Sequence record: NZ_MK262712.1
DNA: 64,000 nt
Reading direction: 5' to 3' (one strand)
Source: a plasmid
A program made the position numbers. Positions 48,501 through 54,500 of the stretch are shown here, in pieces; within the stretch, counting starts at the first letter, position 1, and each line of letters opens with the position of its first letter.

Positions 48501-51500
48501 ATCATCTTACAATGATAGTACTCAAAGCTTTCGCTACCTTCCCAGTCTAGAGACCTGGAGGAGTGAAACTCAGAAAGCAAAAGCAACATTGTGCCATGAT
48601 CACGAACAACATATAAAAATTCAAAATTACCATTTATCAACGCTTGCTTAACTAAGCGCAAATCTATCTCTATGTCGTAGTCATACCAAGGGCTATTAAC
48701 AAGAGAAGCGGAATGCTTCAGAATGAAGTGTTCCTTAACCCAGTTAAAAACCGATTCGATATCATAATCATAATAAACGTTCATAATTAGCTCTCCTAAA
48801 GTAAAAAAGGGAGAGCCCCACAGGGAGCACTCTCCCTGTATGGGTTATGAAATTATTTAATCAAGTCAAAAAATCTTTCTTCCAGTTTGCCTGGGAAAGC
48901 TTCATGACCCTTGAGCATTAATACATCATTCCAATCGACACCTTTCGCACCATCAGGTATATCCAGTTCAGGCAAATGAATCTCAACCCGGACTGTTGCT
49001 TCAGGATAGCGTTCAGCAAGTAAGGGCTCCATACGGCTCTTGAGAACACGTGCAGCGGACTCACCAGCTGAATTACCGGTGTTTGGATTTACCCGATCTT
49101 TATCTGCCCAAATCGACAATTCAATAAATTGGCAATCAGAAGGTGGCATTAAATACTCAGGTATTTCCAGCATTTCCATAAATGTTGAACTTGAAGATGC
49201 CCAGCAAGGAATTGAAGTCGCCTCAGTTACTGATAGCGCATTCTCAATACCTTCACTAACCCCCAAAAACCATGATTTAGTTTCATCACAGTAAGTTGGT
49301 TTAAATAACTGCATCGAACCACCATTCATCTGGTAGACCGGTTTCATCATTAACTTTGGGTTTTCAACATCAGCTTTTTTAAGTCCATCATCAGTAAGAT
49401 GAGTTTTATGGATAGTGCAATTGCGACCGAATTTATCGTTAAAAATAGCAACCATCGTTGGATGAAAACTGGCTGGCTTATTAGAACCGGGCCAGTATCT
49501 CATCTTAGCATTAAACCCCAGACTAGCTGGAATTTTTGTGAGCATCCGTTTTATACCGCGCCCTGATAGATATCGAGCAACCAATGAATCGGGTGTCACA
49601 AATTTTGTGTATTTATACACGGCTTCTAACTTATTTATACGACTAAGTCTCTCTTCCTCACCAATATCTGAAAAAGATTGAGCTTTTTTGTCATAAAGAA
49701 CAATATTAACACGGTCGGCTTCAGTTAACTTTCTATCCTTGGAAACACCAAGCATTTCAAGAATGTTTTTTGCAGCCTGCGTTTTACTAATGCTTTTTAG
49801 TTCAGCAATTAAATCAATGCCATCAATAAAAGTATTATGGGGATAATCCTCATGAATAGCATGAACACTTTCTAGCGTCCTATCTTTAAATCTGAATTTC
49901 GTTTTGCCACTACCAGTAAACGGGCATTTGACAGAACGTGGAGCTTTTTCTAAAGCCTCCTGAAACTCAGGATAGTACGTTAATACATTACGCCATCCAC
50001 CCAGCTGCTGCACATGAGATTTGACAAGGTCAAAAGTTTCTTGCGCGTACTGCATAGGGGTTTTAGCCGGTGAATTATAATTTGTAGAATGACTCATAAT
50101 ACTCTCCTAGCTGACATTGTGGGTTTCACAATGCCTACTGCAATGCAGATAACATTGAGAAACCCACAACGCAGAATGAAAGAAGTGCCACGAAGTGGCA
50201 CAATCATTTATAAGACTTCGAAACCATTAGCAATATATTTCGCCACCAGTCTTTCAACTGCTGAATCCATTGCTTCGGAATTGTCTTCGGAAAATGTGGC
50301 ATCACGAACTAATCGTTCAACCGGCATAATTCCATTAACAACTTCCCCTTCTGTGACGTATACCTTGGTTCCAATCATCCCACTGTCTAATTGACGAGAG
50401 TCAACGCGAACACGTTTAATATACTTATTACCTTTCATATGTTTGCTCCTTAAAGGCGAGCAAACATACCCATGCGGGTATATAAGCCCGCTTGGGAAGA
50501 TAATAGAAGTTAAACTAGGCTTCTGATTAAATCTTTATACAAAGAATTTAATTCAGAGATATCGTTTATTTTTTTAAAATAAACACCATCAAAGCCTAGA
50601 GGTTTATCAATGCCATAACCGACACAAACAATATCTATGCCATGTTTTTTAGCATTTTTAACTGCTGAGCATACATCATCTATTGATTCAGATGGGTCAC
50701 CATCAGTCGCAATAAAGATAACTTTACGTGAGAAATTCAAACGTGAGAAATATTCCACGCATGAATTAATCGCTGTCGCAGTTGGGGTATGTAATCCGCT
50801 AGAAACATTTTCGTAATTTGAAAAGCAACTAGATACAGATTTATTAAAAAACTTAAGTATATCTATATAACCTTCTTTTTGAACTGGATAAACAAGATCA
50901 GCAACATCAATATTGTTCACCGATTCACAAGCAAGGGTAAATGCAAGATTTGCTTTTAAGGCTAAAACTGATACGTCATGCATTGATACAGAGATATCAC
51001 GCAGGTTTATTACACCTACATCAGACCTTTTGTATCCCTCCCCGTATTTCTTAAACACAGAGGTTGCACCCATAGGTACTTCAACAAGCTTTCTACTATG
51101 AATACGAGATCCACGATCAGTTAGCCTGTTGTTACGCCGTACAGTTTGCTTATTTAAAGAAGAAAGTAACTTTCTTAGCTCACGAGAGTGAGCTAGAGCA
51201 TTATTATAGTCCTCCTCGGTCAGAGTGATAAAACCAAAACGAAAACCAAAGTTTTGAATTTCAGCATCACTGAAAGAAGATGCCATTTGAGATATGGATT
51301 TTTTTATAGCTTCATGAAAATCATGAGAATTATCCTGTTCAGCCTCTGTGTCTAGGTATTCATCAAGATCTTCAATCGCCTTTCTTAATTGCGCTGGTGA
51401 GAAACTTTGTGTTGTACGTGCAGAAGTTACAGAACCATCAGAACCATCAGAACCATCAGAACCGTCAGAGCCATCAGAGCCATCAGAGCCATCAGAGCCG

Positions 51501-54500
51501 TCAGAGTCATCAGAGCCGTCAGAGTCATCAGAGCCGTCAGAGTCATCAGAGCCGTCAGAGCCGTCAGAGTCATCAGAGCCGACAGAGTCATCAGAGCCGT
51601 CAGAGTCATCAGAGCCGTCAGAGCCGTCAGAGTCATCAGAGCCGTCAGAGCCGTCAGAGCCGTCAGAGTCATCAGAGCCGTCAGAGCCGTCAGAGCCGTC
51701 AGAGTCATCAGAGCCGTCAGAGCCGTCAGAGTCGTCAGAGTCATCAGAGCCGTCAGAGCCGTCAGAGTCATCAGAGTCATCAGAGCCGTCAGAGTCATCA
51801 GAGCCGTCAGAGTCATCAGAGTCATCAGAGTCATCAGAGTCATCAGAGTCATCTAATCGGTTTTGTTCTTCTTTATCTTTTAGATCATCACGTAACTTTT
51901 CTAGTTCTTCATATAGTTTCAATCCTAACTCACATGCCATAAGAGTTGAATTAACCCCTGTGGCTTCGAGAATCAAAGAATCAAAACGGTCTTTCATGTC
52001 GAATAGAACAGTATCAGCAAGAGCAAAAAAATCATTCAATATTTCAGGAACGCCTTCTTGCCCAAGCTGATTTACACGAAGCTTGTTTAAAATATACATT
52101 TCAATGTAGGAAACGATATTAGAACCGTCACCAGTCATGTTTCCATCACTAACCATAAACGAATACATTTCAGCAAGCATTACTTTTGAAAGCGGAAACT
52201 GATTACCAGTTTTCTCTTCCATCTGAATGTCTTCGAAGAGGTTAATAGAACGATGAAGCCTCTTAAGTTTTATTTCCGCTTTTTTCTCCTCTTCTTTAGA
52301 GGAAAAACTAGCGGTTCCGTCAGGCATTATACATTCGAAGCCAGGTTGTTTTGATAAATATTCATTTTCAAAATCAACAGTAGTTTCGATTTCTGTATAA
52401 CGATTATGACCACCTTCATGACATATCCAGCCGCTACATAGCTTCCAGTATTTGTCATTACTAAAGTCACCGTTTGGTAAAAAAATAGTTTTAGATCTCA
52501 TGTTAATGCATGGTGTTGCATGTGGCCCCAAAAAAAGAACATTGAGTTCAGGATCAGCACCAATCACACGAGCAAGATTATCTACAGCCAACTTACTACG
52601 AATAGAATTGTTTAGCTTAATAGTCATATAGCACCCATAAAGTTAAATGGGCGCACCCATGTGGGTTTGCCCACAAGGGATTAGAAGATATCAAAAATTA
52701 AATGGAGTCGAGAAAGTTACTTTTTTCTGGACTACATCATTATTTGAGACCGGAGTTATCGAAGAATTAGATGTCTTAGCAGGAATACCATTTCCAGTAA
52801 AAGGATCAACGAAAATGGAACCAGTATTATTAGCCAAATTATCATCTAAATCGTTAAAACGATTTTTAATTTCGGCAATAAAACCTGTTACAAGATCGTC
52901 ACCATCCATAATTCTGTTCAAACGATTCGTATCACTTAGCAGTAATAACCATTCGCGAAACAAACTCATGTGAAGGGGGGAATCCAAATTACCAGAAGGA
53001 AGATGGTTTAGTACGCTTTGGATAGAGTCAGCAATTTTAGTTGCACGATCATCCAAAAACATAAAACTCACAACCTTATCTTTTAAATTTGACAGTTTTT
53101 CTACGAAAGTCTGGTCAATTTTAGGTTTTGTGCAGGAAGCATAGATAGATTCAGCAGTCAGAGCAATATCCTGTATTAAACCAACTGAATAGCGGTCTCC
53201 TAAATCCTCTCCATCAATTGACATTGGTGTGAAAGGGATTGGATGGCTAATCTGGAAAAGAAACGATTTTTCGAAGTCATCTTTAGTCATTCTTAATTTT
53301 TCAATTAATTCTGCCAATTTAGGACTTCTGTCTTTTTCCATCTGAATGTATTCTTCATAACGCTCTAGAGCATTCTGAATGCCTTCCTTGAAATATTCTC
53401 GGACGGCCTCTACTTCAATCAAATACTCTTCCAACTTAGAGGTTGGCAGTATATTCATGGAGCTGAAAGGAATGCAGTATTTACGTTTGAGATTACTCAA
53501 TCTTGTATGAACAGCGCTTTTAAAGTTCAAAGCCTTAGTAGAAATCCATTGGACTTCAACCTTACTCACACTCGATTGGTCCGATACTTCATCTTCATCA
53601 AGAAACTGTCGAATTTCATTCGTTCTACGGCGACCCTGACATCCTTCGACATCTACCTTAATAATAACGGCACCATCTTGTAATTCAGGATTGCGGTCGA
53701 TGAAACTTTTTACAGTGTTACTGATTTGAGTGGTATCAGCAATAGCAGCGATTTTGATATTAGCCATGATATTTCTCCAGTATGCACCGGAAAAATATCT
53801 CCCAAAGGGAAAATATTTCCCGGTGGGGGGGGGGGTAGGTAAAATTTAAATAAACGTATCAATTACAATTGTGAAATTGAACGTGATACTTCTTCCGGGA
53901 AAAGTTGCTCAAGCAAAATTTCAGCTTTACTACATGCTTCAGAAGATAACTTAGACGTGAATGCAATTTTAAACCCAACAGAAATTTCTTCATCAAGGAC
54001 TTTGGAGGTAGAAATCCATGAAATCAATTCACGAATATCCATCACCAGTTCGTCATCTTTCAGATTGTTAAGTTCAAAAGCAACTTTTGCAAACATTCTT
54101 AAACATGAAGGTTTCAAATCAGGAAAATGAGCCTCAGCTGCACAATACATAGCTTGTTCATCAGGTCGAATCATCGGCAATATTAAAAAACGCTTAATAA
54201 ATGCAGAGTCTTGGGACTGTGATGAAGCGAAACGCATATCCTCTCCACTCATGTTAGTGTTAGCTGTACCAATAAAGCGGGTGTAGCGATTTGCATAAAT
54301 CAACTCGCCACCTTCTTTACCGGTTGCCCACGGTTTACGCTCAAGCGGCATATGAAGCTTAGCTGCCGTATCTGGGTTTATTTTATCTATCTCATCAAGA
54401 AGAATGATATGCCCATCACGATAGCCTTGCACAAGGTCACTATAAACATACCGTGTATTTCCATTTTCTAGCGTTCTCATACCTTCAAGATCATCAATCG

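What the first reader, a model, noticed from the sequence alone, without database searches (positions are those of the whole stretch)
51431..51853. 47-copy in-frame 9-bp tandem repeat encoding a (DSD/GSD)n acidic tract inside the vWA gene
A 423-bp stretch is built entirely from 9-bp units with three sequence variants, all in one frame. It yields about 140 residues of D/S/G only. Long perfect tandem arrays are hotspots for slipped-strand and recombinational copy-number change. Because the unit is a multiple of 3, expansion or contraction would retune linker length and charge without disrupting the vWA domain. The opposite-strand and alternate-frame ORFs reported over this region are artefacts of the repeat.
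Basis: seen in the sequence. Interest (0 to 1): 0.55.

Follow-up and report, generated by a model that had tools for sequence, protein, structure and literature searches.

The report
Hypervariable acidic linker repeat, plasmid CobT-like gene
A 47-copy, 9-base in-frame repeat encodes the floppy acidic linker of a CobT-like adaptor protein on a Klebsiella resistance plasmid; its copy number runs from 8 to 48 among otherwise near-identical plasmids, so it is a real but ordinary kind of length-variable locus and a possible typing marker.

Summary
Window 51431-51853 is exactly 47 head-to-tail 9-bp units with no indels. They lie in frame in a 705-aa minus-strand gene (50510-52627) and encode (DDS/DGS)n, aa 259-399, net charge -65. 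Two details need correcting: there are seven unit variants, two of them dominant, not three, and one codon is Val.

The window is a pNDM-MAR-type IncHI1B/IncFIB Klebsiella plasmid. In an evenly spaced sample of 58 related PLSDB records, 55 differ from the window by an exact multiple of 9 bp, giving 23 in-frame lengths of 8-47 units. Six plasmids with identical 2.4-kb flanks carry 11, 18, 32, 33, 35 and 37 units. These differ by clean whole-unit indels.

The protein is a CobT homologue. It has an N-domain with an invariant HExxH, a disordered acidic linker, and a vWA/MIDAS domain. It sits in a conserved module of CobS-like AAA+, DUF3150, CobT-like protein and primase. Distant relatives have acidic linkers at the same site that are mostly not repetitive. 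A 73%-identical sister has only about 2 copies of the unit.

Best reading: a slippage/recombination-driven coding VNTR in a length-tolerant tether. Adaptive tuning is untested. Novelty is modest.

The parts
51431..51853 (-). 47 x 9-bp in-frame tandem array encoding (DDS/DGS)n, aa 259-399 of the CobT-like protein; the variable-number locus
   Evidence: copy-number variation
50510..52627 (-). CobT-like vWA gene (705 aa): N-domain, acidic linker, helical shaft plus vWA/MIDAS domain
   Evidence: ORF; Pfam VWA; family matches Pfam CobT and CobT_C and solved CobT 9uka_G; AF2 model of a short allele
51854..52627 (-). N-terminal domain (aa 1-258), homologous to CobT_N, which is described as M48C-peptidase-like
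   Evidence: AF2 pLDDT mostly above 90; description of CobT_N in bioRxiv 10.64898/2026.07.21.739949
52406..52420 (-). HEGGH (aa 70-74): an HExxH motif invariant in all plasmid-type homologues and absent from authentic CobT
50513..51430 (-). C-terminal region (aa 400-705): helices plus vWA domain with MIDAS residues D544, S546, S548, T614, D642
52691..53767 (-). DUF3150 gene directly upstream; conserved partner of unknown function
   Evidence: structure prediction and fold search uninformative
53863..54915 (-). CobS/MoxR-like AAA+ ATPase (AAA_5); presumed motor partner of the vWA adaptor
   Evidence: phrog_249; TIGR01650 at 32 bits, far below its 558 cutoff; midasin, CbbQ, NorQ and CobS chains
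48853..50097 (-). DUF7146/Toprim primase-like gene downstream; conserved fourth member of the module
50208..50438 (-). 76-aa hypothetical ORF between the vWA gene and the primase-like gene, conserved in related plasmids
53825..53835 (-). Poly-C tract on the gene strand (G11 on the + strand) in the AAA-DUF3150 intergenic region; C7-C12 among relatives; followed by stable hairpins

Best explanation
The array is a coding variable-number tandem repeat (VNTR). It forms the intrinsically disordered, polyanionic linker of a plasmid-borne CobT-like adaptor protein.

Shown: the near-identical 9-bp units gain and lose whole units, both in single-unit steps and in large blocks. The pattern fits replication slippage and unequal recombination between plasmid copies. 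Because the unit is 9 bp, every such event keeps the reading frame. The plasmid family therefore carries an allelic series of about 8-48 units in complete plasmid records (24-144 aa, charge about -10 to -65). Alleles as short as 4 units appear in the protein collection.

Inferred, by homology with the cobaltochelatase CobS-CobT-CobN complex and with NorQ-NorD: the linker is a flexible tether between an N-terminal HExxH-bearing domain and a C-terminal vWA/MIDAS domain. That C-terminal domain docks on the neighbouring CobS-like AAA+ ring. The wide range of lengths found in successful plasmids suggests that function tolerates almost any length above a small minimum. On this reading the polymorphism is mostly mutation-driven and near-neutral.

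The acidic linker itself is ancestral to the CobT family. The tandem array is a lineage-specific expansion from a two-copy seed. What the four-gene module acts on is unknown.
For: Array anatomy and reading frame.

Plasmid family: 566 PLSDB records, mostly Klebsiella, IncHI1B/IncFIB, MOBH, MPF_F, including pNDM-MAR.

Unbiased length survey: 58 records gave 26 spans, and 55 of the 58 are exact multiples of 9 from the window.

Identical flanks with different arrays (1101 + 1295 bp compared):
- L006, L007, L008, L011, L018, L024 carry 32, 33, 35, 37, 18 and 11 units.
- L001/L026 carry 47/48 units.
- L015/L021 carry 30/16 units.

Unit-string alignments show single clean indels of +1, +2, -14, -19 and -26 units with no unit substitutions. 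Lineage marker units are retained in register.

Neighbouring proteins keep the same WP_ accession across plasmids, while the vWA protein has a new accession in each record.

Disorder: residues 259-281 of a 576-aa natural short allele have pLDDT below 50, between two confident domains.

Homology: 21-22 of 32 family members hit Pfam CobT and CobT_C. The family profile hits solved CobT 9uka_G at E = 2.4e-43 across both domains, with a non-repetitive D/E/S linker at the same place. [quoted passage not shown] The best fold matches to the C-domain are NorD and midasin MIDAS.

Origin: the 73%-identical sister has 2.3 copies of TCTGATGAC at the site. A 23%-identical homologue has a roughly 100-aa acidic tract with no DNA tandem repeat.
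Against: No within-culture or time-series data were available, so the mutation rate is unknown.

Same-length alleles recur across many records. For example, 9 of the 58 have 35 units, and a K. pneumoniae plasmid and a larger E. coli plasmid with consecutive accession numbers give the same span (H32/H33). So the locus is not switching at very high frequency.

Near-neutrality is inferred only from the breadth of lengths. No phenotype is known for the protein or for the module.

Some very short alleles could be repeat collapse in short-read or hybrid assemblies.

The 26 loci I fetched were chosen to span different lengths, so the fact that all their arrays differ is partly by design. The window protein itself does not reach the Pfam CobT thresholds. 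The CobT link rests on the family profile.
Confidence: 0.72

Rival explanations
1. Adaptive tuning or contingency locus. Linker length and charge are under diversifying or host-specific selection. For example, they might set the reach between the HExxH domain and the MIDAS domain, or the strength of a polyanion-mediated interaction. Plasmids would then exploit the high mutability to adapt the module to new hosts or to counter-defences.
For: Allelic diversity is very high: 23 in-frame lengths in 58 records. Arrays are kept and remain variable in three diverged lineages, at about 99%, 91% and 85% flank identity, each with its own unit types. Composition is held at DDS/DGS in 803 of 839 units counted in 26 arrays, pNDM-MAR excluded. 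Acidic linkers are conserved across the whole CobT-like family.
Against: In-frame change is automatic for a 9-bp unit, so it is not evidence of selection. There is no on/off switching. The same lengths persist in widely spread plasmid lineages. No association with host or replicon type was seen in the sample, which is nearly all Klebsiella. Distant relatives work with linkers from about 20 to about 250 aa, which argues for tolerance rather than tuning.
Confidence: 0.15
2. Assembly or sequencing artefact. The apparent copy-number differences come from repeat collapse or expansion in assemblies of a 423-bp low-complexity region, not from biology.
For: The array is longer than typical short reads. 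Three of 58 spans are off by 1 bp. pNDM-MAR has a frameshift inside the array. The protein collection, largely built from short-read assemblies, returned mostly short alleles of 576-603 aa.
Against: 55 of 58 spans differ by exact multiples of 9. Alleles show ordered internal structure with lineage-specific marker units kept in register: GTC-Val in the window and L002-L005, AAT-Asn in L006/L007, AGC-Ser in L001/L026/L015/L021. The same lengths recur in independent records from different laboratories and countries. Related alleles differ by one clean indel rather than by noise.
Confidence: 0.06
3. Static acidic linker. The tract is simply the conserved ChlD/CobT-type acidic spacer and happens to be repetitive, with no meaningful copy-number dynamics.
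For: An acidic linker at this position is ancestral and is mostly non-repetitive in relatives and in authentic CobT.
Against: Copy number ranges from 8 to 48 units among plasmids whose flanks are identical or at least 99.3% identical.
Confidence: 0.02

Closest known systems
CobT subunit of aerobic (class I, ATP-driven) cobaltochelatase CobSTN (PDB 9uka and related entries; bioRxiv 10.64898/2026.07.21.739949)
   Same: Same three-part architecture: an N-domain, a disordered acidic linker of about 90 aa, and a C-domain made of shaft helices plus vWA with MIDAS. It is also encoded next to a CobS-type AAA+ motor. The family profile aligns to both CobT domains at E = 2.4e-43.
   Different: The plasmid protein keeps an invariant HExxH in the N-domain, which CobT has lost. 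No CobN is present and there is no cobalamin context: the only ORFs above 600 aa in the window are an RND pump, this gene and a UvrD helicase. The AAA partner scores 32 bits against a 558-bit CobS equivalog cutoff. The linker is a DNA tandem array with variable copy number, whereas CobT's linker is non-repetitive.
ChlD/BchD subunit of magnesium chelatase
   Same: An extended linker rich in acidic residues lies between a motor-interacting domain and a C-terminal integrin-I/vWA domain with a functional MIDAS. The protein acts as an adaptor between the AAA+ motor and the client (PMC6604950).
   Different: ChlD's N-domain is an AAA+ module, not an HExxH domain. Its linker is acidic and polyproline. 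No copy-number polymorphism is described for it. No direct homology test against ChlD was run here.
NorQ-NorD, CbbQ-CbbO and midasin (Rea1/Mdn1): MoxR/AAA_5 motors with MIDAS adaptors
   Same: The best fold matches of the C-domain are the NorD vWA domain in NorQD complexes and the midasin MIDAS domain. The AAA partner's best solved-sequence matches are midasin AAA domains, CbbQ, NorQ and CobS. From my own knowledge, midasin also has a long D/E-rich region just before its MIDAS domain.
   Different: These act on defined clients: nitric oxide reductase, Rubisco and pre-60S particles. No client is known here, and the context is a conjugative-plasmid module with a primase-like gene.
Ser-Asp dipeptide repeat (R region) of Staphylococcus aureus ClfA/ClfB/Sdr proteins (own knowledge, not tested here)
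   Same: A D/S-rich low-complexity spacer encoded by short in-frame DNA repeats. Copy number differs between strains without affecting the functional domains, and it has been used for typing.
   Different: These are cell-wall-anchored surface proteins with a signal peptide and an LPXTG motif, and the repeat acts as a stalk through the wall. The plasmid protein has neither feature in its sequence and is presumably cytoplasmic. The two are unrelated by descent.
Coding VNTRs in bacterial housekeeping genes, for example the 57-bp leuA VNTR of Mycobacterium tuberculosis (PMC2704214, seen)
   Same: An in-frame tandem repeat inside an enzyme or adaptor gene, with strain-to-strain copy-number polymorphism and retained function.
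   Different: The unit size, protein context and replicon differ. Here the locus is on a multi-copy, horizontally spreading plasmid.

Membership tests
CobT-like vWA adaptor family (Pfam CobT PF06213 + CobT_C PF11775) | N-terminal CobT_N-type domain | tested here: met
   The family profile (A1) aligns to CobT 9uka_G residues 25-298 with a domain E-value of 1.5e-8. 21 of 32 family members hit PF06213. The window protein alone does not reach the Pfam threshold.
CobT-like vWA adaptor family (Pfam CobT PF06213 + CobT_C PF11775) | Disordered acidic linker between the N- and C-domains | tested here: met
   AF2 gives pLDDT below 50 for residues 259-281 of the short allele. The acidic tract sits at the same position in CobT and in distant homologues.
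CobT-like vWA adaptor family (Pfam CobT PF06213 + CobT_C PF11775) | C-terminal vWA domain with an intact MIDAS (DxSxS...T...D) | tested here: met
   Pfam VWA E = 3.7e-6. D/S/S/D are invariant and T nearly invariant in A1. The residues are D544, S546, S548, T614 and D642 in the window protein.
CobT-like vWA adaptor family (Pfam CobT PF06213 + CobT_C PF11775) | Adjacent CobS/MoxR-type AAA+ partner | tested here: met
   An AAA_5 gene lies two genes upstream. It hits phrog_249 and the CobS, NorQ, CbbQ and midasin chains. The arrangement is conserved in distant relatives.
Aerobic cobaltochelatase (functional CobSTN enzyme) | CobN client subunit and cobalamin-pathway context | tested here: not met
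   No CobN-sized ORF is present. The only ORFs above 600 aa are an RND transporter, this gene and a UvrD helicase. The neighbours are plasmid replication and transfer genes.
Aerobic cobaltochelatase (functional CobSTN enzyme) | CobS equivalog-level similarity of the ATPase | tested here: not met
   TIGR01650 scores 32.4 bits against a cutoff of 558.55.
Coding VNTR (variable-number tandem repeat) | Head-to-tail array of equal-length units | tested here: met
   47 units of 9 bp with 0% indels.
Coding VNTR (variable-number tandem repeat) | Copy number differs among closely related replicons by whole units | tested here: met
   The range is 8-48 units. 55 of 58 spans are multiples of 9. Plasmids with identical flanks carry different arrays that differ by single clean indels.
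Phase-variable contingency locus (on/off switching) | Repeat change shifts the frame or promoter spacing so that expression switches | tested here: not met
   The unit is a multiple of 3, and 25 of the 27 arrays examined (26 fetched loci plus the window) leave the ORF intact. The nearby poly-C tract could be such a switch but was not evaluated.
Phase-variable contingency locus (on/off switching) | Length heterogeneity within a single culture | not testable with these tools
   This needs raw long reads or colony PCR.
Collagen-like / phage tail-fibre repeat (Pfam PF01391; PHROG tail hits) | Long uninterrupted Gly-X-Y repeat forming a triple helix, usually Pro-rich | tested here: not met
   The hit is marginal (30.6 bits against a 27.2 cutoff) and confined to aa 351-398. 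Gly-X-Y runs are broken by DDS units and contain no Pro. The hit is compositional, and the PHROG tail hits cover only the repeat.
Staphylococcal SD-repeat surface proteins | Signal peptide, LPXTG anchor and ligand-binding A domain | tested here: not met
   Read directly from the sequence. The N-terminus MTIKLNNSIRSKLAVDNL has no hydrophobic signal, the C-terminus is ...DLIRSLV, and the domains are CobT-like.
Known anti-phage defence systems (PADLOC-DB) | Match of module proteins to a defence-system model | tested here: not met
   There were no hits for the vWA, DUF3150 or primase-like proteins, and only weak generic P-loop hits for the ATPase.

The most novel reading that the evidence does not exclude
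The polyanionic (DDS/DGS)n tract may be a working part of an uncharacterised plasmid module: CobS-like AAA+, DUF3150, an HExxH-bearing CobT-like adaptor and a primase. It could act as a ruler that sets the distance between a possibly active metallopeptidase domain and the MIDAS domain. It could also act as a DNA or polyanion mimic, or as a segment threaded by the AAA+ ring. In that case its mutable length would be selected to adapt plasmid establishment to different hosts or to host defences.
Probability: 0.1. Interest if true: 0.7.

Novelty: new member of a known kind. Interest (0 to 1): 0.38.

Why it matters
There are three practical points.

1. The plasmid family matters clinically. The records examined here include NDM-1 and tmexCD1-toprJ1 plasmids of the pNDM-MAR IncHI1B/IncFIB type. 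A backbone locus with at least 23 length alleles, which also carry internal sequence information and look stable within lineages, could serve as a cheap high-resolution marker for tracking plasmids. It would complement SNPs, which are nearly absent in the flanks.

2. The array causes assembly and annotation trouble. Every allele receives a new protein accession. Some records call the gene 'hypothetical' or split it. One record annotates an antisense artefact as DUF4573.

3. The natural allelic series of 4-48 units is a ready-made experiment on how linker length affects a MoxR/CobS-vWA motor-adaptor machine. It also draws attention to a conserved, unstudied four-gene plasmid module whose CobT-like member keeps an HExxH motif that authentic CobT has lost.

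As biology, the phenomenon is familiar: a coding VNTR in a disordered linker.

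Tried and rejected
1. The Pfam Collagen hit and the PHROG 'collagen-like tail' and 'tail fiber' hits were rejected. They cover only the repeat and reflect the GSD/Gly-X-Y composition.

2. The first protein search with the full protein was swamped by repeat words. Only 8000 candidates were scored and it returned mostly short alleles. It was still useful for distant CobT-like hits, but it cannot be used for allele frequencies.

3. PADLOC gave no defence-system assignment.

4. For DUF3150, homologues were few, the AF2 model had a mean pLDDT of 63, and Foldseek against the PDB gave nothing below E = 0.09. 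No inference was drawn.

5. Literature searches for DUF3150, cobS/SXT/vWA, pNDM-MAR with von Willebrand, IncC/cobS, and IncHI1B with tandem repeat or VNTR found no description of this repeat or of the module's function. The 'VNTR' and 'tandem repeat' hits concerned chromosomal typing loci and tmexCD amplification. A 2018 preprint reads these genes as cobalamin biosynthesis genes. The missing CobN and the sub-threshold CobS score argue against that reading.

6. An exact look-up of the 705-aa protein in the 15-billion-protein collection found nothing. This precise allele has not been seen there.

8. I considered in-frame conservation as evidence of selection and rejected it, because whole-unit slippage of a 9-bp unit preserves the frame automatically.

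Full report
**1. The observation**

Window 51431-51853 is 423 bp that parse into exactly 47 consecutive 9-bp units. TRF reports one array at 51430-51853 with 0% indels and a score of 568. It detects higher-order periods of 18 and 27, which reflect the alternation of two main units. This is the only substantial tandem repeat in the 64-kb window.

The array lies in the minus-strand ORF 50510-52627 (705 aa). It starts 774 nt after the ATG, so it is in frame, and it encodes aa 259-399.

Seven unit variants occur:
- GACGGCTCT (DGS) x20
- GATGACTCT (DDS) x18
- GATGGCTCT x3
- GATGGTTCT x3
- GACGACTCT, GACGGTTCT and GTCGGCTCT (VGS) x1 each

The tract carries 65 Asp and no basic residue, giving a net charge of -65. 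Its GC content is 55.6%, against 35.6% for the rest of the gene.

The long ORFs in other frames and on the + strand across the array are what a stop-free periodic sequence produces. In one RefSeq record such an antisense ORF is annotated 'DUF4573 domain-containing protein', although the 693-aa sense ORF is intact there.

**2. What replicon this is**

The 5 kb around the array matches 566 PLSDB plasmids. Of these, 530 are from Klebsiella, and they are mostly 200-400-kb conjugative plasmids typed IncFIB/IncHI1B, MOBH and MPF_F. They include pNDM-MAR itself and many NDM and tmexCD plasmids.

On the minus strand the gene order is:
- AAA_5 ATPase (53863-54915)
- DUF3150 (52691-53767)
- the vWA gene
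- a 76-aa ORF
- a DUF7146/Toprim primase-like gene (48853-50097)

A Ter protein, a UvrD-type helicase and tra genes lie nearby.

**3.

I searched PLSDB with a 1023-bp query made of the array plus 300-bp flanks and listed records at even steps down the ranking. This gave 58 records with both flanks aligned.

- Their spans take 26 values, from 672 to 1023 bp.
- 55 of the 58 differ from the window by an exact multiple of 9.
- That corresponds to 23 in-frame lengths of 8-47 units.
- The most frequent lengths are 35 units (9 records), 24 (7), 30 (6) and 38 (6).
- The window's 47 units sit at the top of this range. One 48-unit allele was found (L026).

I then fetched 26 loci. They were deliberately chosen to cover different lengths, so their diversity is partly by design. 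I anchored the array by BLAST of the flanks.

Of the 27 arrays examined (26 loci plus the window), 25 leave an intact ORF of 588-708 aa. The exceptions are:
- pNDM-MAR, which has a 1-nt frameshift inside the array and a split gene.
- CP058870, whose array is in frame but which has a 35-bp insertion downstream.

Either exception could be real or a sequencing error.

Plasmids with identical 1101-bp upstream and 1295-bp downstream flanks carry different arrays:
- L006, L007, L008, L011, L018 and L024 have 32, 33, 35, 37, 18 and 11 units.
- L001/L026 have 47/48 units.
- L015/L021 have 30/16 units.
- L013/L025 also share a flank haplotype. L025 has 8 units, and L013 (pNDM-MAR) has roughly 29-30, which cannot be parsed exactly because of the frameshift.

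I wrote each array as a string of unit types and aligned the strings. Related alleles differ by single clean whole-unit indels of +1, +2, -14, -19 and -26 units with no unit substitutions. L011 and L025 differ by one 29-unit block plus one unit substitution. Rare marker units stay in register: GTC-Val in the window and L002-L005, AAT-Asn in L006/L007, and AGC-Ser in L001/L026/L015/L021. The window and L001 both have 47 units but in a different internal order.

Across records the neighbouring proteins keep the same RefSeq WP_ accessions, while the vWA protein has a new accession almost every time. The exact 705-aa protein is not in the 15-billion-protein collection.

This pattern is what whole-unit slippage or unequal recombination produces. 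Random assembly error would not produce it. Collapse in some short-read or hybrid assemblies cannot be excluded for a few very short alleles.

The locus is not wildly unstable. The same length recurs in many independent records of widespread lineages. A K. pneumoniae plasmid and a larger E. coli plasmid with consecutive accession numbers (OL348377 and OL348379) give the same span and score.

**4. What the protein is**

On its own the window protein hits only Pfam VWA, plus a compositional Collagen hit.

Its N-domain (aa 1-258) has few relatives: 38 representatives among 1.8 billion proteins. Every full-length relative has an HExxH motif at about aa 60-76, and most have an acidic tract right after the N-domain.

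In a 32-sequence alignment the invariant columns include H70, E71 and H74 and the MIDAS residues D-x-S-x-S and D. In the window protein the MIDAS set is D544, S546, S548, T614 and D642.

Of the aligned members, 22 hit Pfam CobT_C and 21 hit Pfam CobT. The family profile's best solved-structure match is cobaltochelatase CobT (9uka_G, E = 2.4e-43). Both domains align, and CobT's own non-repetitive D/E/S-rich linker falls at the same position. CobT lacks the HExxH.

A 2026 preprint on the CobSTN structure describes CobT as follows:
- an N-domain resembling an M48C peptidase;
- a disordered linker of about 90 residues that is never seen in the maps;
- a C-domain made of shaft helices plus vWA with MIDAS;
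- the client CobN held between the two CobT domains.

An AF2 model of a natural 576-aa short allele is confident overall (mean pLDDT 83.8) for both domains. Its linker, residues 259-281, is below 50. Its C-domain best matches NorD in NorQD complexes and the midasin MIDAS domain.

The neighbouring ATPase is AAA_5/MoxR-type. It hits the phage 'CobS' family phrog_249, and it matches midasin, CbbQ, NorQ and CobS chains. It scores far below the CobS equivalog cutoff.

There is no CobN and no cobalamin context. So this is a CobT/CobS-like motor-adaptor pair put to some other, unknown use. It is not a cobaltochelatase.

The four-gene order AAA_5, DUF3150, CobT-like, primase is kept in a 73%-identical sister. 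It is also kept in a 23%-identical homologue that has RadC and KfrA genes nearby. This marks it as a conserved module of conjugative elements.

**5. Origin of the array**

Distant homologues have acidic linkers of about 20 to 250 aa. Some are visibly periodic with other units, but most are not. In one distant homologue the roughly 100-aa acidic tract is not a DNA tandem repeat.

The 73%-identical sister has just 2.3 copies of the 9-bp unit TCTGATGAC at the homologous site. Lineages at about 91% and 85% flank identity have their own arrays, built from other synonymous unit types, and these also vary.

The acidic linker is therefore ancestral. The 9-bp array is a clade-specific expansion that has since been turning over.

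**6. Mechanism**

*Shown:* the array exists, it is in frame, and it forms the linker between two folded domains. Its copy number varies by whole units among near-identical plasmids, in both small steps and large blocks, without disrupting the ORF.

*Inferred from established knowledge of tandem repeats:* the changes arise by replication slippage and by unequal recombination between sister or multimeric plasmid copies.

*Inferred by homology with CobSTN, NorQD and ChlD:* the tract is a flexible polyanionic tether in an adaptor that docks on the AAA+ ring and holds a client. The range of 8-48 units in successful plasmids, and of about 20-250 aa across the family, suggests that length is loosely constrained above a minimum. 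That makes near-neutral, mutation-driven polymorphism the most economical reading.

Frame preservation is automatic for a 9-bp unit, so it is not evidence of selection. The retention of DDS/DGS in 803 of 839 units is weak evidence of compositional constraint.

Adaptive tuning of reach or charge cannot be excluded and is the main rival.

**7. Comparison and novelty**

The closest relatives by descent are CobT-like adaptors. The closest analogues for the tract are:
- the acidic linkers of CobT and ChlD/BchD;
- the D/E-rich region before midasin's MIDAS domain;
- as a polymorphic D/S repeat, the staphylococcal Clf/Sdr SD region (own knowledge; unrelated by descent).

I found no paper describing this repeat or the function of the module. 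The finding is a new member of a known kind: a coding VNTR in a disordered linker. It has practical value for plasmid typing and annotation, and some value as a natural series of linker lengths.

**8. Seen in passing**

A poly-C tract lies in the AAA-DUF3150 intergenic region. It is G11 on the + strand at 53825-53835. It varies from C7 to C12 among the same plasmids, including plasmids with identical flanks. It sits just before strongly folding hairpins (z = -4.5). This could be real homopolymer slippage affecting downstream expression, or homopolymer sequencing error.

Noticed in passing
window 53825-53835 (G11 on + strand; poly-C on the gene strand), within the intergenic region 53768-53862: A homopolymer between the AAA ATPase and DUF3150 genes varies from C7 to C12 among 25 related plasmids. 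It differs even between plasmids with identical flanks around the array (L006 C10, L008 C12, L011 C9). It is followed by stable hairpins (RNA MFE -29.1 kcal/mol, z = -4.5) and a terminator-like site. It could be a real slippage-based expression switch for DUF3150, the vWA gene and the primase, or homopolymer sequencing error.
   Followed up: partly
window 52406-52420 (aa 70-74 of the vWA protein): An HExxH motif (HEGGH) is invariant in all plasmid-type CobT-like homologues. It is replaced by non-catalytic residues in authentic cobaltochelatase CobT, whose N-domain is described as M48C-peptidase-like. The plasmid proteins may therefore retain metallopeptidase activity.
   Followed up: partly
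window 48853-54915, and L027/L028/L029: The four-gene order of CobS-like AAA_5, DUF3150, CobT-like vWA and DUF7146/Toprim primase is conserved from this plasmid to a 23%-identical homologue that has RadC and KfrA genes nearby. It is an uncharacterised module of conjugative elements. The DUF3150 structure prediction had low confidence and gave no fold match.
   Followed up: partly
L016 2277-2690 (+) = NZ_CP042866.1 170032-170445: RefSeq annotates an antisense ORF lying entirely inside the repeat as 'DUF4573 domain-containing protein'. The intact 693-aa sense ORF is not in the PLSDB gene table. Other records label the vWA gene 'hypothetical protein' or split it (pNDM-MAR, CP058870). These are annotation artefacts caused by the array.
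   Followed up: yes
L004 (NZ_CP058870.1), downstream part of the vWA gene: A 35-bp insertion relative to the window, outside the array, splits the gene into two CDS in this record. I did not determine whether it is a real duplication or an assembly error.
   Followed up: no
window 1-12000, for example ORF 4751-7885 (-): A high-GC block (56-67% GC, against 36-45% for the backbone around the vWA gene) contains a 1044-aa AcrB-family RND transporter. This fits an acquired efflux cluster such as tmexCD-toprJ, which is named in several of the best-matching plasmids.
   Followed up: partly
window 57232-57280: A small 18-bp tandem repeat of 2.3-2.7 copies (TRF score 54-61) lies upstream of the UvrD-like helicase gene. 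It was not examined.
   Followed up: no
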